IMG/VR virus record: IMGVR_UViG_3300027804_000047 | Coordinates: 32,001 to 96,000 of that record | Source: a virus | DNA: 64,000 bases | Strand: one strand, 5' to 3' | In this document: positions 5,396 through 52,144 of the stretch, one piece after another | How the letters are laid out: each line of letters begins with the position of its first letter | Position numbering within the stretch: the stretch's first letter is position 1 | Position numbers and translations under genes: made by a program | Notes under the pieces: generated by a model | Told to the model about the DNA's origin: nothing | What the model saw: the letters and a program-made list of their open reading frames with translations, nothing else | Database searches by the model: none

Positions 5396-7291
5396 ATGGC
5401 AACAAGAATGCAGCAACGCAGAGGAACTGCACAGCAATGGACAGATGCAGATCCAATTTTAGCAGCAGGAGAAATCGGATTTGAGACTGACACTGGTCAA
5501 TTTAAAATTGGTGATGGCGTTAACCACTGGGAAGATCTCTCCTACTTTAAGAACCTAGAAGACCTAGGTGGAAACTTAGATGATTATATTCTTTTAACAG
5601 AGAAGGCAACAGCAAATGGCGTTGCTACTCTCGATGGTACAGGAAATATTCCAATGTCACAACTTGGAAATATTATTGATGGAGCACCAGCACTATTAAA
5701 TACATTAAATGAGATAGCAAACGCAATTGATGATGATTCAACTTTTGCTAACACAGTTGTTGCATCTTTATCAACAAAAGCACCAACTGCTTCTCCTAGT
5801 TTAACTGGAACTCCAACAGCACCTACTCCATCTTCAAGCAATGATTCAAATCAAATTGCAACAACAGCCTTTGTTAAGGCTCAAGGGTATGCTATTGCAT
5901 CAACAGTAGATACAAATAAGACTGATGCAGACAATGCAATATCTTTGTTAGATGGAAGACTTGATACAGCAGAATCTGATATCAATACACTACAAAATGA
6001 TTTAGTAGCAGTACAAGGTGATGTAACAACATTACAGGGAAGCACAACATCATTAGACGGAAGACTTGATTCAGCAGAGTCTAATATTACTACTCTACAG
6101 GGAGACTTGTCCACTGCAGAAAATAATATAACAGCAATTCAAGGCGATGTAACAACAGCACAGTCAGATATCAATGCTGCAGAAGGCAGATTAGACACTG
6201 CAGAATCAGAAATTGACGGATTACAAAGTAGCCTTACAACTGCTGAAGGTGAAATTGATCAACTTCAGACTGATGTAACATCTTTACAGACTGATGTAAC
6301 GGCGCTACAAGGAACAGTTGATACCCCTACAACTGGTCTTACTGCTAGACTTACTGCAGCAGAATCAGATATAGGATCTCTACAGACAACAGTAGATACA
6401 CCAACTACAGGTCTTTCTGATCGCATGACTGCAGCAGAAGGAGATATCAGCACTTTACAAGGAGATCTTGATACAGCAGAAGCAACATTAGCAACAGCAG
6501 TATCTGATTTAGATACACATGAAGCAGCAACAACAACTGTTCATGGAATTGCAGATACATCTGCTCTTGCTACAAAGTCTTACGCTGATACAGCAGCAAC
6601 TAATGCACAGACATCAGCGCAGTCTTATGCTGACACAGCACTTGCTTTAAAGGCACCGTTGGCTTCTCCAGCACTTACTGGAACACCAACTGCTCCAACA
6701 GCAACAGCAGGAACAAACACAACACAGGTTGCTACAACAGCGTTCGTTGGAACAGCAGTAGCAAATCTTGTTGCATCAGCACCTGCAGCATTAAATACAC
6801 TGGATGAACTTGCAGCAGCCCTTGGTGATGATGCTAACTTTGCAACAACAGTTACAAATAACTTAGCAGCAAAGGCACCACTAGCATCTCCAACATTTAC
6901 AGGAACAGTTGCTCTTCCAGCAGCATCTTCTGTAACACTAAATGGAACTGCTCTTTCTGCAACACTTGCAGATAAGGCAGATAAGACAGCATCTATATCT
7001 TCAAAGTCAGGAGCATACACATTTGCTTCTGGAGATGTTAATATGATATTTGAGTATAACTCAGGATCAGCAGGAACATTTACAATTCCAGCAGATAACT
7101 CGTTCTGGACAGTAGGACAGAGACTAGAAGTCTTGCAGGTTGGAGCAGGCCAGTTAACAATTGCTGGTGGCTCTGGAGTAACTGTAAATGGCACTCCTAC
7201 AACAAAAACAAGAACAACTTGGTCTGGAGCAACTATTATTAAAAGATCTGCAAACGTCTTCGTAGTAGTTGGAGACCTTGCTTCTTCATAA
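5396..7291 (+). CDS. Long coiled-coil fibre protein with Mtd-like N-terminal domain
   Basis: RRGTAQQW...LAAGEIGFETDTGQFKIGDG N-terminal domain; long heptad region; KAP(L/T)ASP-x-(L/F)TGT three times; C-terminal beta domain ending VVVGDL. Confidence 0.8.
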   Translation: MATRMQQRRGTAQQWTDADPILAAGEIGFETDTGQFKIGDGVNHWEDLSYFKNLEDLGGNLDDYILLTEKATANGVATLDGTGNIPMSQLGNIIDGAPALLNTLNEIANAIDDDSTFANTVVASLSTKAPTASPSLTGTPTAPTPSSSNDSNQIATTAFVKAQGYAIASTVDTNKTDADNAISLLDGRLDTAESDINTLQNDLVAVQGDVTTLQGSTTSLDGRLDSAESNITTLQGDLSTAENNITAIQGDVTTAQSDINAAEGRLDTAESEIDGLQSSLTTAEGEIDQLQTDVTSLQTDVTALQGTVDTPTTGLTARLTAAESDIGSLQTTVDTPTTGLSDRMTAAEGDISTLQGDLDTAEATLATAVSDLDTHEAATTTVHGIADTSALATKSYADTAATNAQTSAQSYADTALALKAPLASPALTGTPTAPTATAGTNTTQVATTAFVGTAVANLVASAPAALNTLDELAAALGDDANFATTVTNNLAAKAPLASPTFTGTVALPAASSVTLNGTALSATLADKADKTASISSKSGAYTFASGDVNMIFEYNSGSAGTFTIPADNSFWTVGQRLEVLQVGAGQLTIAGGSGVTVNGTPTTKTRTTWSGATIIKRSANVFVVVGDLASS

Positions 7292-7298
7292 AAAGTAG

Positions 7299-7304
7299 TA
7301 TAAT
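7299..7304 (+). promoter_or_regulatory. -10 element upstream of the repeat/Hint gene cluster
   Basis: TATAAT just after the fibre stop codon; RBS aggag near 7321. Confidence 0.45.
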
Positions 7305-7335
7305 TAAATAAATATTGAATAGGAGAATGATCTAA

Positions 7336-8394
7336 ATGGCACTACAAAAAACAGGTGACAGAGGAATAAGAAAGGTAGAAGTACCTAATCTGTCAGGAAT
7401 GACAAGAAGTCAATACCAGGCAGAGTTAACCCTAAAAGGTTTAACATATACCGAAACCACTACTACCACATCAAATTCTTCATTAGATCAAAAAATAAAT
7501 ACACAAGGCACTGTTGCTGGTACTATAGTTAATATAGGTACCAGCATTGCCATAAACTATTATCAGTATGTGTATCCTGGTTTTAGCCATTATGCTGCAT
7601 TCAGCCACTACGCTGGTTTCAGCCACTACGCTGGTTTCAGCCACTACGCTGGTTTCAGCCACTACGCTGGATTCTCTCACTATGCTGGCTTCTATCACGG
7701 ATTCTCCCATTACGGTGGATTCTCACACTATGGTGGATTCTCACACTATGGTGGATTCAATCATTATGGAGGCTTCTATCATGGATTTAGCCACTATGGA
7801 TCGTTCTCTCATCAATCATATGGCGGATTCTCACACTCATCATATGGTTCATTCTCACACTCATCATATGGTGGCTTCTATCACGGATTTAACCATTCCC
7901 CAGCATCGTACGGTGGATTTGGAGATTATTTCTCACTATCACCATCTACAGGTGTTAGAACTCCAGGCGGTATCGTAACTGCTGGATCTCTAAATGTTGG
8001 AGATAAATTATTAGCATTAAATATCGCAGAAGTTGGAACAGGTCAATTTGATCCAGCAACATGGTCTTCAGCAACATTTGATGGTATTGAAGTTGTTGAA
8101 ACAGAGGTTGTGGCAATCAGAGAAAGAACTGTTGATAAAATTTACAACATCAATGGAAGCCTTTTCTCTCCATATCACTGGATATTTACAAGAAAGGATA
8201 ATGTCTACAAGTTTGTATTGTCAAAAGATATTGACACATCATATGAAGTTTATGACTTTGCAAACCAAGATTGGTCTGCAGTTACAAACATCACAGAATT
8301 AAACTATATCGACAATGTAGTTTCTATTAACTGTGAACCTTATGATAACTTCTTTACAGAAACAATGTTAGTCTTCGATACGAAAGATAACTAA
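7336..8394 (+). CDS. PASTA-like domain + F-x-H-Y-x-G repeat region + C-terminal Hint (intein-like) domain
   Basis: aa ~13-77 VEVPNLSGMT...KINTQ...AGTIVNIGTSIAINY (PASTA-like); aa 83-199 hold 18 F-x-H units; aa 200-352 SLSPSTGVRTPGG...LNVGDKLL...SPYHWIF...VVSINCEPYDNFFTETMLVFD (Hint blocks A, B, F, G). Confidence 0.75.
   Translation: MALQKTGDRGIRKVEVPNLSGMTRSQYQAELTLKGLTYTETTTTTSNSSLDQKINTQGTVAGTIVNIGTSIAINYYQYVYPGFSHYAAFSHYAGFSHYAGFSHYAGFSHYAGFSHYAGFYHGFSHYGGFSHYGGFSHYGGFNHYGGFYHGFSHYGSFSHQSYGGFSHSSYGSFSHSSYGGFYHGFNHSPASYGGFGDYFSLSPSTGVRTPGGIVTAGSLNVGDKLLALNIAEVGTGQFDPATWSSATFDGIEVVETEVVAIRERTVDKIYNINGSLFSPYHWIFTRKDNVYKFVLSKDIDTSYEVYDFANQDWSAVTNITELNYIDNVVSINCEPYDNFFTETMLVFDTKDN
7579..7932 (+). 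repeat. Coding tandem repeat (FSHYAG / FSHYGG / FYHG / FSHSSYGG units)
   Basis: 18-bp unit ttcagccactacgctggt in four near-perfect copies at 7600-7671, followed by diverged synonymous units. Confidence 0.95.
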
Positions 8395-8396
8395 CG

Positions 8397-9188
8397 GTGT
8401 CACGTAAATATAATAGAGACTATTATCCTAATCATGATGCAGACGAGTTTTTATACTCCGATGACCTGGTTGCACTAAACAAAGAACTATTAAAAGATAC
8501 TAGAGCAACACCATTTTTAATTAGTTCTCAGGTGGCGGTAGAAACTAAGGCATATGAAAAACGAATAACTCCATTAATGCAGCAAGGCAAAATATCTGTT
8601 ACTGTAGGAAATACAGATTGGAATAAAGAGTATGATGAGGGTAGATCATACTGGATACCTGAAAATAGGTGGGTGCATGAAACTAATCTAAAGCCAATAG
8701 AGATAGAAAAAAATCTATATGAATTTAGAACGTCTGCAGATGTATTTTTCTTGCCAGCATCTTATGGATATTTTAGTAAACTCACAAATAATAAATATAT
8801 TCTTCCTTTTCCAAGACCAGTTAGCAGAACTCTTTATCAACATTTAGAAGTAGATGAAGATATTTTAAAAGATTTAGATAATTCTTTAGAGTTAGAACAA
8901 GAGGATATAGACAATATATATAGTAAAGAAAATCCTAATGTTTTTTATCCTTATCCATATTTTTGGAATGTAAGGTGGCTACCTAAAAATTCATGCAAAA
9001 TAACATTTTATACAACAGAAGAGACAGAAAAAATAACCAGGGTTCATGTACCACAAATTACTTTAGATTGTTTAGATGATATACAAAGTCTAAAAGTTCC
9101 TGTACAATTGTATATAGATGTACGGAAAAAATCTCCGTATATAAAGCATGACGAACTAATCATGTACATGAGAGTAGAGGAAATTTAG
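8397..9188 (+). CDS. Hypothetical protein, possibly a diverged paralog of the two following ORFs
   Basis: GTG start 2 nt after the Hint gene stop; ASYGY...LPFP and YFWNVRWLP segments loosely echo the downstream family. Confidence 0.55.
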   Translation: MSRKYNRDYYPNHDADEFLYSDDLVALNKELLKDTRATPFLISSQVAVETKAYEKRITPLMQQGKISVTVGNTDWNKEYDEGRSYWIPENRWVHETNLKPIEIEKNLYEFRTSADVFFLPASYGYFSKLTNNKYILPFPRPVSRTLYQHLEVDEDILKDLDNSLELEQEDIDNIYSKENPNVFYPYPYFWNVRWLPKNSCKITFYTTEETEKITRVHVPQITLDCLDDIQSLKVPVQLYIDVRKKSPYIKHDELIMYMRVEEI

Positions 9189-9901
9189 TGTCAAAATCTA
9201 ATAAAATAACTTTTATACCAAAAGATGAGTTTACATTTGAGTATGCTCCACTTCCAGAGCCTATGTCTAAAAACCTCCCATCTTGGTGGAGAAAAACAGA
9301 ACCATTTGTAGGCGGAGAGCGCAAATTAATAAATGGACAATATAACGAAACAGTAAAAAAATGTCCAGGAATTCTTGATCAAATGGTAACTGGGTATATG
9401 TTAAAGTTTCCATGCGATATTTATGTAGATGCTACTGGAGATGCTTTAGAGGTTCAGGTTCATCCAGTTCATAATGACACAGTAGGAAAACATAGCAGAG
9501 AACAAATAGAGGGATGGACTTATGATAAAAATATATATGTTGATGATATTTTTAGAGTACACCCTATGTGGGTAATAGGAACACAAAAGGGATATAGCAC
9601 GATGTTTGTTCATCCATCTTATCATGACGATCTACCCTTTGTTACAATTCCTGCTATAATAGATACAGATATGTATATTTCAGACGGACCATTTTCTTTA
9701 CTAGTAAAGCGTGGCTTTAAAGGTACTATTGAAAAAGGAACTCCATTAGTTCAGTGTATACCATATAAAAGAGAAGAGTATAAATCTGAAATATTAGAAA
9801 AGCCAGACATGAAGGCTCTAGGGTCAATACCATATAAACTTAGGGCTAAATTCGGCGGAGCATACAAAAATTTCATGTGGGAAAAGAAGGTGTTTAAGTA
9901 A
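9188..9901 (+). CDS. Conserved phage beta-fold protein (DUF6065-like), paralog 1
   Basis: P-x-WW...KKCPGILD...GY...GYSTMFVHP...DLPF...IIDTD...GTIEKGTPLVQCIPYKRE...YK-x-x-x-W-x-KK. Confidence 0.65.
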   Translation: MSKSNKITFIPKDEFTFEYAPLPEPMSKNLPSWWRKTEPFVGGERKLINGQYNETVKKCPGILDQMVTGYMLKFPCDIYVDATGDALEVQVHPVHNDTVGKHSREQIEGWTYDKNIYVDDIFRVHPMWVIGTQKGYSTMFVHPSYHDDLPFVTIPAIIDTDMYISDGPFSLLVKRGFKGTIEKGTPLVQCIPYKREEYKSEILEKPDMKALGSIPYKLRAKFGGAYKNFMWEKKVFK

Positions 9902-10662
9902 TGTCTGATAAGATGGAGGACAAGTATAAAGATGTTCCGCCAATGGAAGATCTGACTGCTCAATTTTGGGCATCAACAGCATATCAGATAACACCTCCAC
10001 CAGTTCCAGCAATTGATAATTTACCAGATTGGTGGAAAGATAGACCTCTATATCAAGTAACAGACGACATAAATAAACTAAGCGTAACTTGGAATAAAGG
10101 TGCAGATTCAGCAGCAATTAGTGTTAAACATTGTATGCCATTTTTTGATGCACTAACTATGGGATATCATTTACCATTAGCATGCGATGTTCATGTTAAG
10201 AAAACAGATAATCCAGATAAGCCAGAAATAACCTGGGATGACGATGCTCCACGTCCTATAGAAATGAGAGGACATATAGAGATTCCAGTACCTTCTGGAT
10301 GTTACCCAATTCATTTTCTTTGGGATATGAGATGGGGATGTAAACTTCCAGATGGTTGGTCTTTAATGATTACTCATCCTACAAATAGATACGATCTTCC
10401 ATTTTTTACTGTTACTGCAATACAAGATTCAGACAGATGGTTTGGTGGAAATGTTGTAACATTCTTTTTAAGAAAAGATTTTGAAGGAACCATTCCTAAA
10501 GGAACCCCAATTATACAATTTACTCCAATTAAAAGAGCAAATTGGACAATGGAGATAGATCATGATCTTCAGGCCGAAGGTCTTTGGGATGTAGAAAGAA
10601 AAAGAAATTATCTTTATGGATTTTACAAGAAACACCGTTGGGTGAGAAAAAAATATAGATAG
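9901..10662 (+). CDS. Conserved phage beta-fold protein (DUF6065-like), paralog 2
   Basis: PDWW...KHCMPFFDA...GY...GWSLMITHP...DLPF...DSD...GTIPKGTPIIQFTPIKR...YKKHRWVRKKY. Confidence 0.65.
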   Translation: MSDKMEDKYKDVPPMEDLTAQFWASTAYQITPPPVPAIDNLPDWWKDRPLYQVTDDINKLSVTWNKGADSAAISVKHCMPFFDALTMGYHLPLACDVHVKKTDNPDKPEITWDDDAPRPIEMRGHIEIPVPSGCYPIHFLWDMRWGCKLPDGWSLMITHPTNRYDLPFFTVTAIQDSDRWFGGNVVTFFLRKDFEGTIPKGTPIIQFTPIKRANWTMEIDHDLQAEGLWDVERKRNYLYGFYKKHRWVRKKYR

Positions 10663-10670
10663 GAAAAAAT

Positions 10671-11333
10671 ATGGAAAACAGATCAAGTTATGGCGATGCA
10701 TTTCAGCCTAGTACAAGTAAGTCTACAAAAGAACATAAATTCTTTGAGAGACAAATAGATATCAATAATTTAGATGCTCTTGAATCTCTTCTTTTATCTC
10801 AATACAAAAGAATAGAAAATGGAGAAGTAGTTAAGCAAAAACTAAACGATCATACCCCATGGGATGATTCTGGAAGTATAACTACTATGAATTGGAACAA
10901 GTATAATGTTTTTCAGTTTTATGATCAAAACATTCATACACTGTTTCGTGCCGTAAAGGATATGACTGTAGATGCTTGTGAGCATTATGGACTTGATTTT
11001 GTTCAAGAACAATTTATGGTTCAGGGATGGTTTAATGTTAACTATAATCATATCGGAAAATTGGACTGGCACGAGCACGGAGGAGATGGTGCTCCTTACT
11101 TCCATGGATATTATTGCGTAAAGGCAGAACCATCAGTTACTCATTATCGTGTTTTTGAAAAAGAAATAGAAAACCACAATAGAAATAATCGTGCCATACT
11201 TTCTGAAACTGGGCATCCACATGCTATGGGTGACTGGGACTGGGATGGTCCAAGAATAACTATAGCGTATGATGTTATTCCGCTAAGATATATTCCAAAG
11301 GAATGGGAGCAACACTGGATCCCAATGGTGTGA
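10671..11333 (+). CDS. Putative 2OG-Fe(II) oxygenase (HxH type, TIGR02466-like)
   Basis: WFNVN...WHEH...FHGYY...HAM...RITIAYDV: metal-binding His triad and terminal R-x-T/S-I-A motif. Confidence 0.7.
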   Translation: MENRSSYGDAFQPSTSKSTKEHKFFERQIDINNLDALESLLLSQYKRIENGEVVKQKLNDHTPWDDSGSITTMNWNKYNVFQFYDQNIHTLFRAVKDMTVDACEHYGLDFVQEQFMVQGWFNVNYNHIGKLDWHEHGGDGAPYFHGYYCVKAEPSVTHYRVFEKEIENHNRNNRAILSETGHPHAMGDWDWDGPRITIAYDVIPLRYIPKEWEQHWIPMV

Positions 11334-11334
11334 T

Positions 11335-11664
11335 ATGGAATATTTCCTAATTGCATTATTATTACTATTTTCTTTAGTTTTTAAAAAGTATTCTATTGAT
11401 ACAAAATTAACAATTAAAGAATTAGAAAAAGATAAAAACTATTTTAGAAATACACTATGGAATAGGCTTTATTATTTAAATAAAGATGCAAAATCTACAG
11501 ATTTTAGATATCAAAACTTGAAAAAAAGAATTGATGTATTAATTAATGATATAGAAGATACTGATTTTTCAAATTTTGATGGAGATGCAAAATATGAATT
11601 AATAAATGCATTAAAAGAGATAGATTTTTATGGAGATTCAAATGATTCAAATAAAAATAAATAA
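11335..11664 (+). CDS. Hypothetical protein with N-terminal membrane anchor
   Basis: MEYFLIALLLLFSLVF hydrophobic segment followed by a coiled coil; very AT-rich. Confidence 0.6.
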   Translation: MEYFLIALLLLFSLVFKKYSIDTKLTIKELEKDKNYFRNTLWNRLYYLNKDAKSTDFRYQNLKKRIDVLINDIEDTDFSNFDGDAKYELINALKEIDFYGDSNDSNKNK

Positions 11665-11842
11665 GTCTTGCCAGGCTTGGGGACAGTGTGTTTTTGATGC
11701 TCCAGAAATATTCGATCTTGTAGATAGTGAAAGAAAAACATGGAAGTATAATGCTGATGATTCTATGTTAGAAAAAATATCTATCGCAGCATCACATTGT
11801 CCCAACAGAGCAATATCATTTAAAAAGGTTGAAGATGAATAG
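11642..11842 (+). CDS. Single-cluster (3Fe-4S type) ferredoxin
   Basis: CQAWGQC...APEIF...AASHCPNRAI, i.e. C-x2-X-x2-C...CP as in actinobacterial ferredoxins; ggag RBS before ATG 11642. Confidence 0.85.
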   Translation: MIQIKINKSCQAWGQCVFDAPEIFDLVDSERKTWKYNADDSMLEKISIAASHCPNRAISFKKVEDE

Positions 11843-11960
11843 TTTGATTTGTAAAATTAAGGGACATAAAGCAGATAAAAAAGAAACGACTTGTCCATTT
11901 ACATTAAAAACCTATCAGGTGTGTGTAAGGTGCGGTATCAAAAGGGTTAAACCAGAATGA
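11835..11960 (+). CDS. Small Cys/His zinc-binding protein (41 aa), absent from the ORF track
   Basis: MNSLICKIKGHK...TCPF...VCVRCG; overlaps both neighbours, ending in an ATGA junction. Confidence 0.6.
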   Translation: MNSLICKIKGHKADKKETTCPFTLKTYQVCVRCGIKRVKPE

Positions 11961-13108
11961 AAATAGCAGCATACGGAATAGGTAAAAACGAAGAAAAAAA
12001 TATACCAGGTTGGTTTGAAGGTATAAAAGATGCAGATTACGTTTTATATGTAGATACTGGATCAACGGATAAGAGTGTTGAGATAGCAAAATCTTTAGGA
12101 ATTGATGTTAAGTTTTCTTACTTTGACCCGTGGGATGAAACAATGGCTAAAAATGCTGCTCTTTCTTTTATACCATTGGACTTTGATTATTGCATTAACC
12201 TAGACATGGATCAACACATGAAAAGCAAAGATTGGAAAGAAAAGATATTATTAGAAAATGGCGATTACGAAATAATGTCTTTTAACTTACACTCTTCTCA
12301 CGGCTTAGCAGATTCTAATGTAATTAAAAAATCATTTAAGATCCATAAAAGACAAGGACTTTTTTGGTTTGGATATAGACCAGAAATTAAAAAAATAGGA
12401 TACAACATTGAAACTGCTTCTGCTAAAACCTTAGATATAGTGGTTTCTGACATTCCTGGAGATGAGGCTAGGTTTGAAAACAGGGATCCTTTGTATATTA
12501 AGTCGTATAAAAATTATGTAGGAAAATTAAAAAGATCTAGAAATAATGGCATTATGGTTCAGGCTTTAAATTCTTTAGCATTGTCATATTATGAAGTAGA
12601 CGATAAAGAAAATTTTGAAAATGTTTATTATGAAATGCAAGAGTTTATATCAAAGGTAGAAGTTGAAAATGATGTAGAAATACCAGATCAGTATGCTGTT
12701 AATTTAGCATACACTTTATTTAATCCTAATAAAACAATAGATATTTATAATAAGTTATATGGATCTTCAGAAATAAGTTCATATCAAAAATTTTATTTAG
12801 ATTTAAGAAAAGCAATAATTTATTATAAGAAAAAAGAATATCAAAGATTAGAAAAAATATTAAATTTGATTGATTCTGAAAAAACATTTTATGAAGGCAA
12901 CGAAACCAGATGGGATTCATATGCTTTATCAGAAACAGAAATAAACATAATAAAATATTTAAAAAATATAAAAGAAAACAAAAACAATCAAGAATATATA
13001 AATGAATTAGATAATCTGTGTCTTATTGTGTTTTCTAGCATAAATTGGGGCAAGTGGCACACTGATTTAGCACAAAAAAGTTTTGATTATTTTGAGGGGC
13101 TAATGTGA
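11957..13108 (+). CDS. GT2-family glycosyltransferase with helical (TPR-like) C-terminus
   Basis: KNEEKNI...VDTGSTDKS...AKNAAL...LDMD (DxD) N-terminal GT-A fold; helical C-terminal half. Confidence 0.85.
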   Translation: MKIAAYGIGKNEEKNIPGWFEGIKDADYVLYVDTGSTDKSVEIAKSLGIDVKFSYFDPWDETMAKNAALSFIPLDFDYCINLDMDQHMKSKDWKEKILLENGDYEIMSFNLHSSHGLADSNVIKKSFKIHKRQGLFWFGYRPEIKKIGYNIETASAKTLDIVVSDIPGDEARFENRDPLYIKSYKNYVGKLKRSRNNGIMVQALNSLALSYYEVDDKENFENVYYEMQEFISKVEVENDVEIPDQYAVNLAYTLFNPNKTIDIYNKLYGSSEISSYQKFYLDLRKAIIYYKKKEYQRLEKILNLIDSEKTFYEGNETRWDSYALSETEINIIKYLKNIKENKNNQEYINELDNLCLIVFSSINWGKWHTDLAQKSFDYFEGLM

Positions 13109-14115
13109 ACACAGTAATGGTAACTGGCGTTGCTGGTTTAGTTGGAAGCAATATTGCTAAAAAATTAATATCAGAAGGATATAATATTGTAGGTGTAGAC
13201 AATTTTATAGGTGGATATAGAGATAATGTTCCAGAAGGCGTTTTTCTTATTGAAAAAGATTGCAATGATTTAACAGAGACTGATTTTATTAATGTAGAAA
13301 CTGTAGTTCATGCTGCATGTACACCGCATGAAGGTCTTTCTGTTTTTTCCCCAAAGTTTATAACAGATAATACATTTGGCATATCCATGAATGTTTTAAA
13401 ATGCTCAATACAGTCTGGTGTTAAAAAGTTTATTTTTACATCAAGTATGGCAAGATACGGTTCTCAAGACATAGTTCCATTTACTGAAGATATGATCCCA
13501 AATCCACAAGATCCGTACGGTATAGCAAAAATTGCATTTGAAAATTCTCTTAAAATTCTTTCAGAAGTTCACGGTATAAAATATGTAGTATTAATTCCAC
13601 ACAATATTATTGGTCCTGGACAAGTATATACAGATCCATTTAGAAATGTTGCAGGAATTATGATAAATAGAATGCTAAAAGGATTACAGCCAATAGTCTA
13701 TGGTGATGGTACTCAAATGAGATGTTTTTCTGATATTAAAGATGTTGTGGATCCAATATACCATGCTGTAGTAAATGATACAGTAAATGGAGAAACCATA
13801 AATATTGGTCCAGATAAAAACTATATAACTATTAATGAATTAGCACATACTATAGGAAAAATTATAGGGATGAATGTCGAACCAATATATCTTCCAAAAA
13901 GGCCTAAAGAGGTTAAGTTTGCTAATTGTTCTGCAGACAAAGCAAGAAGTTTATTAAATTATAACCCTGTAACAACTCTTGAATCAACAATTACTGATAT
14001 GGTAAACTGGGTTAGAACAAGAGGTCCATTAGATTTTAATTATAATTTACCTGTTGAAATTGTAAATGAATTAACTCCAAAAACTTGGACAGATCAAAAA
14101 GTTTTTAATACATAA
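13105..14115 (+). CDS. NAD-dependent nucleotide-sugar epimerase/dehydratase
   Basis: TGVAGLVGS Rossmann motif, TSSMARYG, YGIAK (YxxxK), GDGTQMRCF. Confidence 0.92.
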   Translation: MNTVMVTGVAGLVGSNIAKKLISEGYNIVGVDNFIGGYRDNVPEGVFLIEKDCNDLTETDFINVETVVHAACTPHEGLSVFSPKFITDNTFGISMNVLKCSIQSGVKKFIFTSSMARYGSQDIVPFTEDMIPNPQDPYGIAKIAFENSLKILSEVHGIKYVVLIPHNIIGPGQVYTDPFRNVAGIMINRMLKGLQPIVYGDGTQMRCFSDIKDVVDPIYHAVVNDTVNGETINIGPDKNYITINELAHTIGKIIGMNVEPIYLPKRPKEVKFANCSADKARSLLNYNPVTTLESTITDMVNWVRTRGPLDFNYNLPVEIVNELTPKTWTDQKVFNT

Positions 14116-14163
14116 TGTGTAAACCTAAATAATAGCATTAGAGTTTTGTAAAAATAAAAACTC

Positions 14164-14172
14164 TGGTATACT
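14164..14172 (+). promoter_or_regulatory. Extended -10 promoter for the reductase gene
   Basis: TGgTATACT, preceded by inverted repeat agagtttt...aaaactct (14140-14164); RBS aaggag follows. Confidence 0.55.
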
Positions 14173-14204
14173 TTAGCAATAACAGTTTTTTAAGGAGCAA
14201 ATCA

Positions 14205-16235
14205 ATGTCTGATTTTTTTAGTTTTCATTTATCTGAAGAGTTCGTAAATGAGTATAAAACAAAGGAAGCCCCGTTTGGTTTTACAGACGCAGGCGGTAAT
14301 TCATTAGGAGAGATTACATTTATTCGTACCTACTCCCGTATGAAAGAAGATGGAACTAAGGAAAGATGGTATGAGGTTTGCCGTAGAGTAATCGAGGGTA
14401 TGTATTCAGCACAGAAGAATCACGCTAAAGAAAACAGACTACCTTGGAATGACTACAAGGCTCAGGCTTCTGCAAAAGAAGCATTTGATCGTTTATTTAA
14501 TTTAAAGTGGACTCCACCTGGACGAGGCTTATGGTCTTTTGGAACAGCATTAACAATGGAGAAAAAGAACTCTGCTGCACTTCAAAATTGTGCCATGGTT
14601 TCAACAAAAGATATTGACCGCAATGATCCAGGACAGTTATTTGGCTGGGTTATGGATGCATTAATGATGGGTGTTGGTGTAGGGTTTGATACTTTGGGCG
14701 GGGAGAAAAATCTTCCGATTTATACTCCAACAGAACCAGAACAAGTATATGAAATCCCAGATACTCGTGAGGGTTGGGTAGAGTCTGTTCGATTATTAAT
14801 TAATTCATTTTTAAAGCCTAATATGTATATCCAAGAGTTTAACTATGACCTTATTAGGCCATTAGGTGCCCCTATTAAGGGGTTTGGGGGCACTGCAAGC
14901 GGTCCTGCACCACTTATGCAGTTGCACAAGCAAATCAGGTCTGTAATAGGCGGTAGAGCAGGAGAAACCCTAGACTCAAGAGCAATCGTAGACATTGTAA
15001 ACCTTATCGGTACTTGTGTAGTATCAGGAAATGTTAGACGATCCGCTACCTTGGCTTTAGGTGGAGCAGAAGATAAAAACTTTATGAATTTGAAGAACGC
15101 TGAGGTTTTTCCTGAGCGTAATTCATTTGATCCAGAAAATCCAGGTTGGGCATGGATGTCAAACAACTCCATTGCTGCGACGGTAGGTACAAAGTACGAA
15201 GACTACGTAGACCTAATCGTTAATAATGGAGAACCAGGATTTATCTGGCTTGATGTAGCACGTAACTATGGTCGTTTAGCAGATCCAAAAGATGGCAAAG
15301 ACTATCGTGTTATGGGCTTCAATCCGTGTGCGGAGCAGCCATTGGAATCATACGAGTTATGTACACTTGTTGAAGTGCATTTAAATCGTCATGAATCTAA
15401 GGAAGACTTCCTGCGGACACTCAAGTTTGCATATTTGTATGGAAAGACTGTTACATTAATTCCAACACACTGGCAACAGACAAACGGAATCATGCAGCGT
15501 AATCGTCGTATTGGTACATCCCTAACAGGTATTGCATCCTTCTCAGACAAATTTGGCTTGCCTGTTGTGCGTGAATGGATGGACGAAGGCTACAAGACTA
15601 TTCGTAAATATGATCATTCTTATTCTGAATGGTTATGCGTTCGTGAGTCCATTAGAGTCACAACTGTTAAGCCATCAGGGTCTGTATCAATTCTTTCTGG
15701 CGCAACGCCAGGAGTTCACTGGGCACCAGGCGGAGATTATTTCTTGAGAGCAATTCGATTTGGGAATACCGACCCAATGATTCACTTATTCAAGGCTGCT
15801 GGATATAAGATGGAGGCTGACCTTGTATCTGCGAATACAACTGTCGTTTATTTCCCAGTTCATTCTGGCCATCCAAGATCTGAAAAAGATGTTACATTAT
15901 TTGAGAAGATTGCGCTTGCTGCTACTGCTCAGAAATACTGGTCAGATAATGGCGTTTCTGTAACGCTTTCATTTGACAAAGAAACTGAAGCAAAGCATGT
16001 AGCGCCTGCGCTTCATATGTACGAGGGACAACTAAAGGCTGTTTCATTCTTGCCGATGGGAAATCATACATATCCTCAACAACCATATACTCAAATAACT
16101 AAAGAAGAATACGATAGTTATATTGGACAAATCAAAAAGATCGATTGGTCTGCTATTTACGACGGTGCCGAGAATTTAGAAGCACAAGGCGAAATGTACT
16201 GCACAACTGATGCCTGTGAAATAAAAATATCTTAG
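14205..16235 (+). CDS. nrdJ: Class II (adenosylcobalamin-dependent) ribonucleoside-triphosphate reductase
   Basis: RTYSR, PPGRGLW, ALQNC, GNVRRSA, NPCAEQ (thiyl Cys), TTVKPSG, and C-terminal C-x4-C (YCTTDACE). Confidence 0.93.
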   Translation: MSDFFSFHLSEEFVNEYKTKEAPFGFTDAGGNSLGEITFIRTYSRMKEDGTKERWYEVCRRVIEGMYSAQKNHAKENRLPWNDYKAQASAKEAFDRLFNLKWTPPGRGLWSFGTALTMEKKNSAALQNCAMVSTKDIDRNDPGQLFGWVMDALMMGVGVGFDTLGGEKNLPIYTPTEPEQVYEIPDTREGWVESVRLLINSFLKPNMYIQEFNYDLIRPLGAPIKGFGGTASGPAPLMQLHKQIRSVIGGRAGETLDSRAIVDIVNLIGTCVVSGNVRRSATLALGGAEDKNFMNLKNAEVFPERNSFDPENPGWAWMSNNSIAATVGTKYEDYVDLIVNNGEPGFIWLDVARNYGRLADPKDGKDYRVMGFNPCAEQPLESYELCTLVEVHLNRHESKEDFLRTLKFAYLYGKTVTLIPTHWQQTNGIMQRNRRIGTSLTGIASFSDKFGLPVVREWMDEGYKTIRKYDHSYSEWLCVRESIRVTTVKPSGSVSILSGATPGVHWAPGGDYFLRAIRFGNTDPMIHLFKAAGYKMEADLVSANTTVVYFPVHSGHPRSEKDVTLFEKIALAATAQKYWSDNGVSVTLSFDKETEAKHVAPALHMYEGQLKAVSFLPMGNHTYPQQPYTQITKEEYDSYIGQIKKIDWSAIYDGAENLEAQGEMYCTTDACEIKIS

Positions 16236-50358: not shown

Positions 50359-50654
50359 GTAAGAAAAACCATATGGAATGGTTAGAGGCCCTAAAAACTA
50401 TGGGTCATAAAAAGTATTGGAATAGAGCAAACACTGTAGAGTTTTTTGCCTTTGTTGCTAAAGCAATGATTATTTTACCAGGTTTGCTGTTTGACATAAG
50501 TGTTTGGTGGTTTTATATTTTTGCATTGGTTTCAAGCCTTGGGCTTATCTGGTCTTCAACTGTAAAAACAATACCAACCCTAATTTGGTTTAACATACTA
50601 TGGTCAATTTTAGCAATACTTTATATTGCAAAATATTTTGGTGTTATTTTATGA
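50355..50654 (+). CDS. Small integral membrane protein
   Basis: About three hydrophobic segments in 99 aa; ATGA-coupled on both sides. Confidence 0.7.
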   Translation: MSKKNHMEWLEALKTMGHKKYWNRANTVEFFAFVAKAMIILPGLLFDISVWWFYIFALVSSLGLIWSSTVKTIPTLIWFNILWSILAILYIAKYFGVIL

Positions 50655-52144
50655 AATTAGTTATTATTGGTGGAGGTTCTGCTGGATGGATGAGCAGTCT
50701 TTTTCTTAAGAAAAGGTATCCTCATTTTGATATTACAGTTATAAATAGTAGCAAATTAGATATCTTGGGTGCGGGAGAAGGAACTGTTGGAAACTCTAGT
50801 TTTGCATTTGATTATATGGAATTAGATGCCTTTGAGTTTATTAAAAAAACAAAATCATCAATTAAAACTGGAGTCAGATTTACTGGATGGAATAAAGACA
50901 CAGATTATTTTATGGGCCTTGCTCCAATGGCATATGAAGAAAATAATGATCTATATCCAAAGGTAGTGGCAACTGCTGCACAAAAATATAAATCTTTAAA
51001 TAAATTAAATATGTATTATAGGCAGGCACTTGATGACAGACTTCCCTTTAAAAAATCAAACCTAACAAATAAATACTTTGCAGACTCTACCTTTATATGG
51101 AAGATGTGGGTTGCTTGGCATTTTGATGCAAGACTTCTTGCTGCCTTCCTTGCTGAAAAAGCAGCAGAACGAGATATCAAGATAGTAGATAACATTGTTA
51201 CATCCTTTGAATCTGATGACGATGGAAATATAAATAAAATTATCTTTGAAGATGATACATTTTTAGATTGTGATTTTATAATTGATTGCACTGGTTTTCA
51301 AAGACTTGTTATTGGAAAACATTTTAAATCTGAATGGATAGATTACAGCAAATATTTACCGCTAGATACTGGTCTAGCATTTATGTTACCTACAAAAGAG
51401 AATTTACCACCATATACAGAACTAATAGCCATGAATGCTGGCTGGGTTTTTAACATACCTTTGCAGCATAGAACTGGTGCTGGATATCTATATTCTTCAA
51501 AATATATAACAGAAGAAGAAGCAATAAAAGAAATAAAACAAAAATATGGAGATGTTCAAATAATAAAAAAGTTTTATTTTAATGCTGGACATTATAAAGA
51601 AAGTTGGATTAAGAATGTCATTGCAATAGGCTTGTCCTCTGGATTTTTGGAACCAATGGAGGCAACCACGATACATGGAACTATAAGAATGTTATATAAA
51701 TTAGTAGATACATTTGATTTAGAAAATTATAATGAAAGTGATATTGAATATTTTAATGAACACCTACATAGATTCTATGCAGATTGTAGAGATTTTATTG
51801 CTATTCATTATATTACAAATAGAGAAGATACCCCGTTTTGGAAAAACTTTACAGTAGATAATGAATTATCAGATAACATTAAAAAGTTTTTAGAAAAAAT
51901 GCAGCAACAAACTGTATACATACACGAAGACATGGACTCCTGGGTATCAGACTTACATAAGGTATACTATGGATCATTAGGTACACATCTAAATGAACAT
52001 GTTATTTCAAAAGAACTTGAAGATGGAGATGCTTTAAAAGAAATCGAAAGAATTGATGAAAGTTTTAGTTCACAATTAGAAGATTATATTAAAAATAAAG
52101 AGTTTTTTGATATGATTAATAATGATGAGTTGACAATTAAATAA
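50651..52144 (+). CDS. Flavin-dependent tryptophan-halogenase-family protein
   Basis: IIGGGSAGW, GAGEGT, IKTGVRF (position of the PrnA catalytic Lys), FIIDCTGF, GWVFNIPL (WxWxIP variant), GLSSGFLEPMEATTI. Confidence 0.88.
   Translation: MKLVIIGGGSAGWMSSLFLKKRYPHFDITVINSSKLDILGAGEGTVGNSSFAFDYMELDAFEFIKKTKSSIKTGVRFTGWNKDTDYFMGLAPMAYEENNDLYPKVVATAAQKYKSLNKLNMYYRQALDDRLPFKKSNLTNKYFADSTFIWKMWVAWHFDARLLAAFLAEKAAERDIKIVDNIVTSFESDDDGNINKIIFEDDTFLDCDFIIDCTGFQRLVIGKHFKSEWIDYSKYLPLDTGLAFMLPTKENLPPYTELIAMNAGWVFNIPLQHRTGAGYLYSSKYITEEEAIKEIKQKYGDVQIIKKFYFNAGHYKESWIKNVIAIGLSSGFLEPMEATTIHGTIRMLYKLVDTFDLENYNESDIEYFNEHLHRFYADCRDFIAIHYITNREDTPFWKNFTVDNELSDNIKKFLEKMQQQTVYIHEDMDSWVSDLHKVYYGSLGTHLNEHVISKELEDGDALKEIERIDESFSSQLEDYIKNKEFFDMINNDELTIK

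What the first reader, a model, noticed from the sequence alone, without database searches (positions are those of the whole stretch)
7336..14115. Candidate new system: repeat-peptide/Hint 'precursor' followed by a tailoring-enzyme operon
Seen: directly after the long fibre gene lies a protein built as PASTA-like domain, 18 F-x-H units (FSHYAG etc.), then Hint domain. It is followed, with gaps of only 0-8 nt or overlaps, by three related beta-fold proteins, an HxH 2OG-Fe(II)-type oxygenase, a membrane-anchored protein, a 3Fe-4S ferredoxin, a small Zn protein, a GT2 glycosyltransferase with helical C-terminus, and a nucleotide-sugar epimerase. Known: multi-core repeat precursors next to oxidases and transferases are the layout of RiPP clusters; Hint domains self-cleave or ligate; PASTA domains bind peptidoglycan; hydroxylation followed by glycosylation is a known protein-modification sequence. 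Inference: the phage makes a Ser/His/Tyr/Phe-rich repeat polypeptide that is oxidised or cross-linked and glycosylated, processed by its Hint domain, and either displayed at the fibre tip (adhesion, shielding, metal binding) or released as modified peptides. I know of no description of such a phage system but could not search for one.
Basis: partly seen in the sequence, partly recalled or inferred. Interest (0 to 1): 0.85.

Follow-up and report, generated by a model that had tools for sequence, protein, structure and literature searches.

The report
Self-cleaving His/Tyr-repeat phage fibre protein
An uncultured phage encodes, next to its tail-fibre genes, a protein with a cell-wall-binding head, a sticky Phe-His-Tyr repeat and an intein-like cap that probably cuts itself off, followed by a conserved set of enzyme genes that may decorate the repeat, though no chemistry has been shown.

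Summary
Gene 7336-8394 encodes a PASTA domain, exactly 18 F-x-H units and a C-terminal Hint domain. The Hint call rests on an AF2 model (pLDDT 92) whose best PDB matches are BIL domains, inteins and Hedgehog. Ser200 and block-B His281 are invariant in 53 of 53 relatives. The terminal His-Asn is Phe-Asp, so N-terminal self-cleavage is expected, not splicing.

The protein belongs to a large family (488 clusters at E<=0.001): a variable head, a low-complexity repeat and a terminal Hint, in phage fibre modules.

- The two "beta-fold" proteins are DUF6065 with a dUTPase-like fold (Z 8.3-10.8). They also sit near RNR in viruses without Hint proteins.
- The first gene (8397-9188) is unrelated to them.
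- The "oxygenase" is only a lead.

The whole ten-gene set recurs with every His/Tyr-repeat locus found (4 others), in at least 3 backbone clades. Across about 150 loci, repeat type tracks the neighbouring oxygenase genes. Phylogenetically independent contrasts are too few for significance (median p 0.06 to 1).

A RiPP-like released peptide is unlikely; a modified virion appendage is the better reading. Earlier notes of this scan report the same kind of system in at least 33 other genomes.

The parts
5396..7291 (+). Tail-fibre gene directly upstream (context; left border of the module)
   Evidence: PHROG tail fibre families (E 7.8e-43) and Pfam Mtd_N (E 2.8e-14). Syntenic fibre genes sit upstream in relatives.
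7336..8394 (+). Repeat-Hint protein, 352 aa: PASTA head, F-x-H repeat, C-terminal Hint domain
7375..7548 (+). PASTA domain (aa 14-71)
   Evidence: Pfam PF03793, E 8.2e-6, 26.1 bits, above the 23.2 cut-off. BFVD holds an uncultured-phage protein auto-named PASTA_pknB with the same Hint end.
7579..7932 (+). Low-complexity repeat (aa 82-199) with 18 F-x-H units (FSHYAG, FSHYGG, FYHG, FSHSSYGG)
   Evidence: TRF periods 18 and 24 nt. 18 F.H matches; 113 of 118 residues are G, S, F, Y, H or A. Unit number varies among relatives: 19, 11, 9 and 14.
7933..8391 (+). Hint domain (aa 200-352): Ser200 as residue 1, block-B His281, ends ...MLVFD-TKDN with no His-Asn
   Evidence: Alignment A1: Ser, His and INCEPYDNFFT are invariant in 53 of 53. 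AF2 pLDDT 92.2. Foldseek PDB and BFVD matches.
8397..9188 (+). Unknown protein, 263 aa, 2 nt after the Hint gene; found only in His/Tyr-repeat loci; fast evolving
   Evidence: No Pfam, PHROG or NCBIfam hit. Unrelated to DUF6065, OXY3 or OXY5 by hhalign. Present in L002, L003, L004/5 and L158 at 29-61% identity.
9188..9901 (+). DUF6065 paralogue a (dUTPase-like fold)
   Evidence: PHROG 7084, E 1.2e-39. Atlas lead to PF19541. AF2 pLDDT 89.4. VIA-align: 11 dUTPases at Z 8.3-10.8, cupins at 3-4.
9901..10662 (+). DUF6065 paralogue b
   Evidence: 26% identical to paralogue a, E 5e-26. PHROG 7084, E 1.2e-29.
10671..11333 (+). Candidate 2OG-Fe(II)_Oxy_5-like protein (a lead only), with WHEHGG...FHGYYC
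   Evidence: Atlas features: 17 of 30 hits carry PF13759. No Pfam hit. hhalign to PF13640-type proteins 11.6%. 72-89% identity in the four other His/Tyr loci.
11335..11664 (+). Small protein with a hydrophobic N-terminus (MEYFLIALLLLFSLVF), probably membrane-anchored
   Evidence: Sequence read directly. Kept in L002, L003, L004 and L158. No transmembrane predictor was run.
11630..11842 (+). Single-cluster ferredoxin, 70 aa; three Cys (C-x5-C...CP) suggest 3Fe-4S
   Evidence: Pfam Fer4_13 (26.6 bits against 24.5) and Fer4_15 (24.1 against 22.4). The cluster type is inferred from the Cys pattern.
11829..11960 (+). 43-aa Cys/His ORF (C..H...C...CxxC), a possible zinc ribbon
   Evidence: ORF. Kept at 48-68% identity over 37-41 aa in L002, L003, L004 and L158.
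11957..13108 (+). GT2-type glycosyltransferase (N-terminal about 100-185 aa) with an unassigned C-terminal half
   Evidence: PHROG 13126, E 3.6e-29. Pfam GT2 below cut-off. tblastn matches annotated phage GT2 genes over aa 1-185.
13105..14115 (+). NAD-dependent nucleotide-sugar epimerase/dehydratase (GxxGxxG, YxxxK)
   Evidence: Pfam Epimerase, E 4.1e-43; NCBIfam GalE-like below the equivalog cut-off. Absent from L004.
14205..16235 (+). Class II ribonucleotide reductase (backbone gene; right border of the variable island)
   Evidence: PHROG 367, E 4.7e-143. 84-96% identical across relatives.

Best explanation
Gene 7336-8394 encodes a tail-fibre-module protein made of a PASTA head, a 118-residue Gly/Ser/Phe/Tyr/His repeat and a C-terminal Hint domain.

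Inferred mechanism. After folding, Ser200 attacks the Phe199 carbonyl (N-to-O acyl shift), helped by block-B His281. There is no terminal Asn and no conserved +1 nucleophile, so splicing cannot follow. The ester is resolved by water or another nucleophile. This frees a 199-residue mature protein that ends in the aromatic repeat, and discards the 153-residue Hint cap. That resembles Hedgehog or B-type BIL processing. It is a functional analogue of the self-cleaving C-terminal chaperone domains of other phage fibres.

The genes from 8397 to 14115 form one co-inherited cassette with this repeat type. Part of it probably modifies the repeat or another virion protein by oxidation and O-glycosylation. 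The candidates are 8397-9188, the candidate oxygenase 10671-11333, the ferredoxin, the GT2 and the epimerase. The two DUF6065 genes more likely belong with the adjacent ribonucleotide reductase.

Shown: domain architecture, Hint fold, conserved catalytic residues, family size, synteny. Inferred: cleavage, virion location, any modification.
For: Hint fold and residues. The domain is terminal in nearly all of the best 150 family members and is preceded by low-complexity repeats of many kinds.

Fibre-module position with FN3 or PASTA heads. Distant tblastn matches of the Hint domain fall in annotated tail, tail-fibre or virion structural proteins of Erwinia, Alcaligenes and Salmonella phages and phage NCTB.

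Cassette conservation: all ten downstream genes are kept in L002, L003, L004 (minus the epimerase) and L158, while the Hint domain has diverged to 37-49% identity. The His/Tyr module needs 4 changes on the RNR tree, at least 3 of them forced by well-supported branches. On the Hint tree it is one clade (99/93).

Family-wide pattern: Pro-rich repeats are followed by arrays of PF13640 oxygenase genes, FGFTP and FGFSP types by g10671-like genes, and GAF types by neither. The same adjacency holds in a second phage group with different synteny, where these genes lie inside the fibre module.

Independent contrasts go the expected way on average 4.8 times and the other way 0.1 times, out of 8 pairs.

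A GT2 homologue (E 7e-38 against my cassette HMM) lies 4 genes upstream of Hint-capped Thr/Cys-rich proteins in a third context.

Precedent for phage-encoded virion glycosylation in actinobacteriophages: passages of PMC11256854 citing Freeman et al. 2023.
Against: There are no experimental data: no cleavage, modification or virion location has been shown.

The covariation is not significant once relatedness is allowed for. The median p values are 1 and 0.5, and 0.5 and 0.0625. Adjacent genes between conserved flanks would be co-inherited anyway.

This window's repeat has one Pro, and its operon has no confirmed oxygenase.

DUF6065 and PF13640 genes also occur away from Hint genes.

Second-site Hint genes with Pro-rich repeats in L068, L017 and L026 have no enzyme gene next to them.

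The island is more AT-rich (GC 0.29-0.33) than its flanks (0.40-0.42), as imported accessory DNA often is.
Confidence: 0.5

Rival explanations
1. The repeat-Hint protein is a self-cleaving fibre-module protein, but the downstream genes are an unrelated accessory island in a recombination hot spot between the fibre genes and RNR. In this reading DUF6065 serves nucleotide metabolism. The GT2, epimerase, ferredoxin and the rest act on host envelope glycans, on other virion proteins or on host metabolism. The covariation would reflect only block inheritance.
For: The Hint-to-RNR interval ranges from about 830 to 7,600 bp among relatives, with the exception of L053 (9,043 bp), where the matched copy is the second-site gene. 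The island has low GC. DUF6065 has a dUTPase-like fold, a copy sits in the replication module, the genome has no canonical dUTPase, and DUF6065 is near RNR in S-RIM4 and HSTV-4. PF13640 genes occur elsewhere in these genomes. The contrasts are not significant. Published views of phage 2OG oxygenases invoke 2OG levels or DNA repair (PMC3037559, passages).
Against: The same ten genes stay with the His/Tyr repeat across at least 3 backbone clades and deep divergence. No locus among about 95 distinct ones mixes a His/Tyr repeat with another enzyme set, although the conserved Hint and DUF6065 genes offer recombination points. In the second phage group the oxygenase genes lie inside the fibre module, far from RNR.
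Confidence: 0.3
2. The Hint domain acts as a single-turnover ligase rather than a simple self-protease. The Ser200 ester is attacked by an amine or hydroxyl of another molecule, such as a virion protein, a peptidoglycan or lipid component, or a sugar. The PASTA-repeat fragment would then become covalently attached by its C-terminal Phe199. This resembles cholesterol transfer by Hedgehog or conjugation by the Tetrahymena BUBL BIL domains.
For: The closest solved folds include BIL2 of the BUBL1 locus and Hedgehog autoprocessing domains. The domain is always terminal and the repeat always abuts the scissile bond. Hedgehog-type transfer is described in the review PMC7765530 (passages).
Against: No acceptor-recognition region follows the Hint fold: only 4 residues remain. 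The -1 residue varies widely in the family (F, Y, W, D, H, N, M, K). Nothing identifies an acceptor.
Confidence: 0.12
3. The repeat is a multi-core precursor that is oxidised, cross-linked or glycosylated and then released as modified peptides.
For: Repeated near-identical units lie next to enzyme genes in one tight operon. Repeat type tracks enzyme content.
Against: No protease, RiPP recognition element or class-defining RiPP enzyme was detected by Pfam, PHROG or NCBIfam. The only hit was a sub-threshold TIGR04139 match, E 0.023, on 10671-11333. There are no cleavage motifs between units. Family members carry folded FN3 or PASTA heads and sit among fibre genes. Repeats such as (GAF)n have no enzymes beside them.
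Confidence: 0.04

Closest known systems
B-type bacterial intein-like (BIL) domains and Hedgehog-type Hint autoprocessing domains (solved folds 2lwy, 6y75/6tmm, 1at0/6tyy)
   Same: The horseshoe Hint fold (TM 0.61-0.81). A nucleophile at residue 1 and a block-B His. No intein-type C-terminal His-Asn, so N-terminal cleavage or transfer is expected rather than splicing. They lie in variable, non-conserved proteins (review PMC7765530, passages).
   Different: Ser rather than Cys at position 1 in this subfamily; distant members do have Cys. It has its own invariant INCEPYDNFFT block. It is always the extreme C-terminus and has no sterol-recognition region. It is always preceded by a low-complexity repeat. 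It is encoded in phage fibre modules. Membership of the B-type sequence family itself was not tested.
Self-cleaving C-terminal intramolecular chaperone domains (peptidase S74) of phage tail spikes and fibres
   Same: A C-terminal domain of a fibre-region protein with low-complexity content that detaches autoproteolytically at a Ser (described in PMC7824862, passage). This is the same logic of 'fold or assemble, then cut off the cap'.
   Different: An unrelated fold and chemistry: a Ser/Lys dyad there, an N-O acyl shift here. Any chaperone role of the Hint cap is conjecture.
Viral and bacterial protein hydroxylation plus glycosylation of repeat proteins (chlorovirus PBCV-1 prolyl 4-hydroxylase on Pro-rich repeats; Skp1 Hyp-GlcNAc pathway, Pfam PF11397; mycobacteriophage virion glycosylation)
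   Same: Relatives pair Pro-rich repeats with PF13640 (P4H-type) genes, and some carry PF11397-type transferases. Phage glycosyltransferases that glycosylate virion proteins are known in actinobacteriophages (PMC11256854, passages). The PBCV-1 and Skp1 facts are recalled, not checked in a call.
   Different: This window's repeat has almost no Pro. Its cassette holds a GT2, an epimerase, a ferredoxin and unassigned proteins instead of recognised P4H genes. No substrate has been demonstrated anywhere in the family.
RiPP biosynthetic clusters with multi-core precursors
   Same: Tandem near-identical peptide units are encoded next to candidate modifying enzymes.
   Different: There is no leader peptide, recognition element, protease or RiPP-class enzyme. 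The 'precursor' has folded domains at both ends and belongs to a structural gene module.

Membership tests
Hint (Hedgehog/intein) superfamily | Horseshoe-shaped all-beta Hint fold | tested here: met
   AF2 pLDDT 92.2. 49 PDB matches at E<=0.001, led by BIL domains, inteins and Hedgehog. Pfam Intein_splicing hits 22 of 53 members, best E 6.6e-6, and Hint_2 hits 11 of 53.
Hint (Hedgehog/intein) superfamily | Nucleophile (Cys/Ser/Thr) at residue 1 and block-B His | tested here: met
   Ser (aa 200) and His (aa 281) are invariant in 53 of 53 sequences of A1. The rows were picked with a pattern requiring Ser plus a hydrophobic residue at the start, so the Ser count is partly built in. In the profile search distant members show Ser or Cys there.
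Inteins (splicing) | C-terminal His-Asn followed by a Cys/Ser/Thr +1 residue; insertion in a conserved host protein | tested here: not met
   The domain ends MLVFD followed by T, R, S, G, Y and others, then 2-10 residues. It is terminal, not inserted.
A-type BIL domains | Highly conserved C-terminal His-Asn (review PMC7765530) | tested here: not met
   Phe-Asp in this subfamily. His-Asp in the A3 subfamily.
B-type BIL domains | All intein splicing motifs except the C-terminal one; N-terminal cleavage (review PMC7765530) | tested here: inconclusive
   The motif pattern agrees, but no B-type BIL profile or sequence was compared and cleavage is untested.
Hog/Hedgehog autoprocessing domains | Hint module followed by a sterol-recognition region; Cys1 | tested here: not met
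   Only 4 residues follow the Hint fold, and residue 1 is Ser.
RiPP precursor and cluster | Leader/core organisation with a class-defining modifying enzyme or recognition element | tested here: not met
   None appears among the Pfam, PHROG or NCBIfam hits of the ten proteins.
PASTA domain | Match to PF03793 above the gathering score | tested here: met
   26.1 bits against 23.2, aa 14-71.
2OG-Fe(II) oxygenases (PF13759/PF13640) for 10671-11333 | Profile match or DSBH fold with an HxD/E...H iron triad | tested here: inconclusive
   Pfam 0 of 33 members. hhalign to PF13640-type proteins 11.6%. The Atlas lead to PF13759 covers 17 of 30 hits.
dUTPase-like superfamily for DUF6065 (9188-9901, 9901-10662) | dUTPase beta-barrel fold | tested here: met
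   11 dUTPases at Z 8.3-10.8 with 109-130 aligned residues; cupins only at Z 3-4. Foldseek E values are about 1e-3.
dUTPase-like superfamily for DUF6065 | Five catalytic dUTPase motifs / enzymatic activity | tested here: inconclusive
   A profile of A2 finds no dUTPase in PDB sequences. Invariant columns are W, C, G and P only.
GT2 glycosyltransferases | GT-A N-terminal domain matching PF00535 | tested here: inconclusive
   Pfam 19.1 bits, below the 23.3 cut-off. PHROG 13126 scores E 3.6e-29, and tblastn matches annotated GT2 genes.
SDR nucleotide-sugar epimerase/dehydratase | PF01370 match with GxxGxxG and YxxxK | tested here: met
   E 4.1e-43. The motifs GVAGLVG and YGIAK are visible.

The most novel reading that the evidence does not exclude
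Phages of aquatic (probably actinobacterial) hosts carry an undescribed modular system. A hypervariable low-complexity peptide tail on a fibre-module protein is chemically tailored by repeat-specific enzymes encoded next door. It is then exposed, or covalently transferred to a target, by a terminal Hint domain. In this window the tail is a His/Tyr/Phe/Gly repeat reminiscent of metal-binding or cross-linking adhesive proteins, served by its own redox and glycosylation set. If so, many orphan phage 2OG-Fe(II) oxygenases are virion-protein tailoring enzymes rather than metabolic genes.
Probability: 0.2. Interest if true: 0.85.

Novelty: new variant of a known kind. Interest (0 to 1): 0.66.

Why it matters
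Phage genomes from oceans and lakes are full of 2OG-Fe(II) oxygenase and glycosyltransferase genes with no known substrate. The literature I read attributes them to 2OG balance or DNA repair (PMC3037559, passages). A large family of fibre-module proteins sits directly before such genes, each with a hypervariable repeat abutting a self-cleaving Hint domain. That gives a concrete, cheap test: express, look for cleavage, look for mass shifts.

This window adds a variant with a Pro-free His/Tyr/Phe repeat, a PASTA head and a distinct, strictly conserved enzyme set. It also re-assigns DUF6065, which has no paper in the searched library, to a dUTPase-like fold with RNR linkage.

If modification is real, host recognition by these phages depends on post-translational chemistry that gene-based host-range prediction cannot see.

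Tried and rejected
1. Searches with the whole 352-aa protein failed. The search for related loci and the search for homologous proteins gave machine errors or a time-out. tblastn and blastn against isolated phages found nothing at E 1e-5, and phmmer against PDB found nothing. Using the Hint domain alone worked.

2. 'DUF6065 is a cupin or oxygenase' was my first guess and is rejected. The fold matches dUTPases at Z 8.3-10.8, against cupins at 3-4.

3. 'Gene 8397-9188 is a third DUF6065 paralogue' is rejected.

4. 'Gene 10671-11333 is a demonstrable 2OG oxygenase' could not be shown.

5. Significance of the covariation was tried with treekit independent_pairs on the 50-row Hint tree and on a joint 95-row tree. 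There were too few informative pairs, and the median p ranged from 0.0625 to 1.
   - In one search I dropped duplicate domains and short 'other' fragments.
   - In one search I dropped 46 of 141 rows as duplicate domains, plus genes with fewer than 3 downstream ORFs or fewer than 45 residues before Ser1.

6. The trio c15 / PF13640 / PF11397 after second-site Hint genes looked like a third association. The c15-PF13640 pair also occurs without a second Hint gene, in L002. In this genome a PF13640 gene lies just upstream of the window and the genome has only one Hint gene. I give that association little weight.

7. Unknown ORFs next to Hint genes in the second phage group got no Pfam name.

8. 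Literature searches found no description of this family:
   - 'DUF6065': 0 papers.
   - 'Hint domain' + phage + tail fiber: 4 papers; the one I opened, on phiCbK, was irrelevant, and the other three I judged from the listing only.
   - 'bacterial intein-like' + bacteriophage: 8 papers, none on fibres by title or abstract.
   - intein-like / tail protein / autoproteolytic / phage: listing only.
   - 'Hint domain' + '2OG-Fe' + phage: 0 papers.

Full report
WHAT THE WINDOW IS

The window is bases 32001-96000 of a 117.6-kb IMG/VR virus record rated complete. It has siphovirus-like content:
- portal at 20380, prohead protease, and major head protein at 23403;
- a 3207-aa ORF at 29505-39128 in the tail region;
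- a class II ribonucleotide reductase (RNR) at 14205;
- a DnaB-like helicase, and a DNA polymerase matching PHROG 405.

Its RNR is most like that of Actinomycetia phage DSL-LC01 (63%) and Mycobacterium phage Gaia (60%). Its GT2 is also closest to DSL-LC01. An aquatic actinobacterial host is plausible but was not tested.

THE OBSERVATION

ORF 7336-8394 follows fibre gene 5396-7291 by 44 nt.
- Pfam finds PASTA at aa 14-71 above its cut-off.
- Tandem Repeats Finder finds 18- and 24-nt arrays at 7577-7879.
- The protein has exactly 18 F-x-H matches between aa 83 and 185. In the 118-aa repeat, 113 residues are G, S, F, Y, H or A.

The C-terminal 153 residues gave only weak sequence signals:
- Intein_splicing at E 0.08;
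- intein and BIL chains at E 0.04-0.05 with a family profile;
- Intein_splicing in 22 of 53 relatives and Hint_2 in 11 of 53.

The fold settles it. An AlphaFold2 model built on 53 relatives has pLDDT 92.2. It matches the Tetrahymena BIL2 domain, the Ssp DnaB mini-intein, the Clostridium thermocellum BIL domain and Hedgehog autoprocessing domains, with 49 PDB matches at E<=0.001.

In the alignment the first residue (Ser200), a Thr five residues on, the block-B His (His281) and the block INCEPYDNFFT are invariant. The domain ends MLVFD plus 2-10 variable residues, with no His-Asn and no conserved +1 nucleophile. The rows were selected with a pattern that required Ser at the start. The independent profile search shows Ser in close members and Cys in distant ones at that position.

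Promoter-like and terminator-like sites in 7000-14400 are no more frequent than in shuffles: 27 against 37.5 expected, and 3 against 3.0.

CORRECTIONS TO THE GENE LABELS

1. Genes 9188-9901 and 9901-10662 are paralogues (26% identity, E 5e-26) of PHROG 7084 / DUF6065. Gene 8397-9188 is not related to them.

2. A model of 9188-9901 (pLDDT 89.4) matches eleven dUTPases at Z 8.3-10.8 over 109-130 residues. Cupins reach only Z 3-4. Foldseek agrees weakly.

3. More DUF6065 copies exist. A third lies between ssb and the DNA polymerase at 52890-53603 (hhalign probability 100%). A fourth lies at 110444 of the record. The genome has no canonical dUTPase.

4. DUF6065 relatives occur in 50 isolated viruses, mostly haloarchaeal. 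None of these appeared among the 11 records with any Hint match at E<=1.
   - In cyanophage S-RIM4 the gene follows the RNR subunits after four tiny ORFs.
   - In halovirus HSTV-4 it lies between the tail-fibre/adhesin genes and a class II RNR.
   I therefore place DUF6065 with nucleotide metabolism. One caveat: in the second phage group below it is often embedded among oxygenase genes.

5. Gene 10671-11333 has no Pfam, PHROG or NCBIfam assignment.
   - 0 of 33 family members hit Pfam at E<=0.01.
   - A profile finds nothing relevant in the PDB.
   - hhalign to the PF13640-type neighbours gives 11.6%.
   - Only the language-model Atlas points to PF13759 (17 of 30 hits).
   - Its WFN...HEH...HGYY pattern resembles what I recall of that family. 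That is recall, not a test.

6. The 43-aa Cys/His ORF is conserved and therefore probably real.

THE FAMILY

A profile of the Hint domain finds 488 representative clusters at E<=0.001, 129 of them at E<=1e-10, among 1.84 billion proteins. Among the best 150, the domain ends within about 20 residues of the C-terminus in nearly all full-length members.

The 60 residues before it are almost always low-complexity. Examples are FGFTP, FFPP, (GAF)n, FGVFGFSP, FYHG/FAHGYGG, PPYYNPPPED, GPPxGPP, poly-Pro, NPGF and TIGTIN.

Heads are FN3-like repeats in most members, and PASTA (with or without Pro/Thr linkers and Cys-rich modules) in others.

BFVD holds uncultured-phage proteins with the same Hint end, automatically named 'Hint domain containing', 'Fibronectin type III' or 'PASTA_pknB' (TMq 0.85-0.90). 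The sequences are therefore public. My literature searches found no description of them.

GENOMIC CONTEXT, FIRST PHAGE GROUP (78 loci)

Synteny is fibre A, fibre B, fibre C, repeat-Hint, a variable island, RNR, a 1233-aa protein, a small protein, then portal. The island ranges from about 830 bp (one DUF6065 gene) to about 7.6 kb. L053 is the exception at 9,043 bp, because there the matched copy is the second-site gene.

I clustered all plus-strand ORFs and named the clusters by Pfam. Island content by repeat type:

| Repeat type | Genes after the Hint gene |
|---|---|
| FFPP / PPPF | 2-8 PF13640 (prolyl-hydroxylase-type) genes plus two DUF6065 genes |
| FGFTP, PFSPF, FGVFGFSP/AP | DUF6065 plus 1-2 g10671-like genes |
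| (GAF)n | DUF6065 only |
| His/Tyr (window, L002, L003, L004/5) | the full set seen here |

Exceptions: the second-site Hint genes in L068 (FFPP) and in L017/L026 (PFSPF) have no enzyme gene beside them.

GENOMIC CONTEXT, SECOND PHAGE GROUP (79 loci)

Here RNR lies upstream of the fibre genes. I labelled ORFs with HMMs built from my own clusters.
- Hint genes with NPGF, PPPYDN, PPADPPAA, poly-Pro or FFPP repeats are again followed by PF13640-type and g10671-like genes, and those in turn by further fibre-like genes.
- FGFTP types are followed by g10671-like genes.
- Repeat-less Hint proteins (L130-L141) have none. They do have a GT2 homologue (E 7e-38 against my HMM) four genes upstream.
- L158 is a fifth His/Tyr locus with the same ten genes.

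THE HIS/TYR CASSETTE

All ten downstream genes are kept in order in L002, L003 and L158. L004 lacks the epimerase and swaps the ferredoxin and GT2.

| Part | Identity to the window |
|---|---|
| PASTA head | 52-85% |
| Hint domain | 37-87% |
| 8397-9188 homologue | 29-61% |
| DUF6065a | 57-87% |
| DUF6065b | 71-86% |
| g10671 | 72-89% |
| GT2 | 33-59% |
| epimerase | 68-69% |

F-x-H unit numbers are 18, 19, 11, 9 and 14.

On the RNR tree the four His/Tyr loci with a complete RNR need 4 changes, at least 3 forced by well-supported branches. The window's nearest backbone relatives (RNR 94-96%) carry FN3-(GAF)n-Hint and one DUF6065 gene. On the Hint tree the His/Tyr loci form one clade (99/93). 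The cassette is therefore old and moves between backbones as a unit.

HOW STRONG IS THE COVARIATION?

Raw tables look striking. In the first group:

| | at least 2 PF13640 genes | fewer |
|---|---|---|
| Pro-rich repeat | 11 | 5 |
| Not Pro-rich | 0 | 34 |

But labels cluster on the tree. Only 3 independent pairs exist, and the median p values are 1 and 0.5.

On a joint tree of 95 distinct Hint domains:
- Pro>=25% against PF13640 next door gives 5 pairs and median p 0.5.
- Pro>=10% against any PF13640- or g10671-like gene gives 8 pairs. They go the same way 4.8 times and the other way 0.1 times on average, with median p 0.0625.

The direction is consistent, but the test is underpowered. Block inheritance between conserved flanks would produce much of the pattern.

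What speaks for more than linkage:
- the adjacency recurs in two different synteny contexts;
- in the second group the enzyme genes lie inside the fibre module;
- no mixed cassettes were seen, although the conserved Hint and DUF6065 genes offer recombination points.

MOST LIKELY MECHANISM

Shown:
- the architecture;
- the fold;
- the conserved Ser and His;
- the lack of a splicing end;
- the fibre-module location;
- cassette conservation.

Inferred:
- an N-O acyl shift at Phe199-Ser200 and release of a 199-residue PASTA-repeat protein;
- display on the virion or at the fibre;
- binding of peptidoglycan through PASTA;
- modification of the repeat, or of another virion protein, by part of the cassette.

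For this Pro-free repeat the plausible chemistry is hydroxylation or cross-linking of His, Tyr or Phe, and O-glycosylation of Ser or Tyr. None of it is supported beyond gene content.

Virion glycosylation by phage glycosyltransferases is documented for mycobacteriophages (PMC11256854, passages citing Freeman et al. 2023).

A transfer reaction instead of hydrolysis is possible. A RiPP-like release of small peptides is unlikely.

COMPARISON WITH THE KNOWN

The domain works like B-type BIL or Hedgehog Hint domains. It fails the defining C-terminal features of inteins and A-type BILs (review PMC7765530, passages), and it lacks the Hedgehog sterol-recognition region. Functionally it parallels S74 self-cleaving fibre chaperones (PMC7824862, passage).

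Phage 2OG oxygenases have been discussed in terms of 2OG levels and DNA repair (PMC3037559, passages).

EARLIER NOTES OF THIS SCAN

I consulted these after my own reading was formed. The same kind of system (Hint-capped repeat proteins beside oxygenase genes) is reported in at least 33 other genomes. The His/Tyr type is noted by first readers on one other genome.

These notes are not independent evidence. They agree with my reading, except that one treats DUF6065 as a partner of the oxygenases, where my fold and context results point to nucleotide metabolism.

VERDICT

This is a new variant of known kinds (Hint autoprocessing; virion protein modification). It has good experimental leverage and no chemistry yet.

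Noticed in passing
window 9188-10662 and 52890-53603; G000:C1:110444-110974: DUF6065 (no paper in the searched library) has a dUTPase-like fold (Z 8.3-10.8). It is present in four copies in a genome with no canonical dUTPase. Homologues sit next to or near RNR in cyanophage S-RIM4 and halovirus HSTV-4. It may be a nucleotide-metabolism enzyme family of viruses.
   Followed up: partly
G000:C1:30643-30894 (about 1.1 kb upstream of the window start) and G000:C1:106604-106762: The genome's only PF13640 (P4H-type) oxygenase gene lies just upstream of the window. A weak PF11397 (Skp1 hydroxyproline GlcNAc-transferase family) match lies far downstream. Protein hydroxylation and glycosylation genes are therefore dispersed, not confined to the cassette.
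   Followed up: no
L039 8240-10486, L050 80-1990, L062 8617-10269, L038 631-2001: Second-site Hint proteins in relatives have a PASTA-like head, long Pro/Thr or SPVG linkers and repeated Cys-rich modules. They are followed by a small c15 gene, a PF13640 oxygenase gene and a PF11397 glycosyltransferase gene.
   Followed up: partly
alignment A3 (proteins P0020-P0068) and loci L085-L163: A sister subfamily of the Hint domain ends ...MLTHD-S. It keeps the penultimate His, with Asp in place of Asn and often Ser at +1. C-terminal cleavage, or even splicing onto a 3-8-residue tail, is not excluded there.
   Followed up: no
L085-L129, the ORF directly after the Hint gene (e.g. L095 10070-10609): A conserved family of about 180-aa proteins (25 distinct members) directly follows the Hint gene in the second phage group. 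It has no Pfam match and no hhalign relation to the oxygenase or DUF6065 families.
   Followed up: partly
L130-L140 (e.g. L130 3012-4088 and 5285-7588): A GT2 homologue of the window's glycosyltransferase lies four genes upstream of 735-784-aa Cys/Thr/Gly-rich Hint-capped proteins that lack an aromatic repeat.
   Followed up: no
L045 7055-7798 and cluster c20 in 10 loci: Collagen triple-helix repeat proteins (Pfam E 5.6e-9) sit in the second fibre module of relatives. They are alternative substrates for the P4H-type enzymes.
   Followed up: no
window 8001-14000: GC falls to 0.29-0.33 across the enzyme cassette, against 0.40-0.42 in the fibre/repeat gene and RNR flanks.
   Followed up: no
window 50600-52144 and 210-926: There is a tryptophan-halogenase-family gene in the replication module (PHROG 2928, E 9e-106) and a protein with a partial 'ferrochelatase' PHROG match. 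DSL-LC01 also has a glycosyltransferase next to a tryptophan halogenase.
   Followed up: no
phage records H41-H51 (Erwinia pEa_SNUABM phages, phage NCTB, Alcaligenes Afa-NA1, Salmonella Sen-NF): Distant Hint-like C-termini (24-27% identity) occur in annotated tail, tail-fibre or virion structural proteins of isolated jumbo and other phages. The Erwinia phages and phage NCTB also encode GT2 homologues elsewhere in the genome.
   Followed up: no
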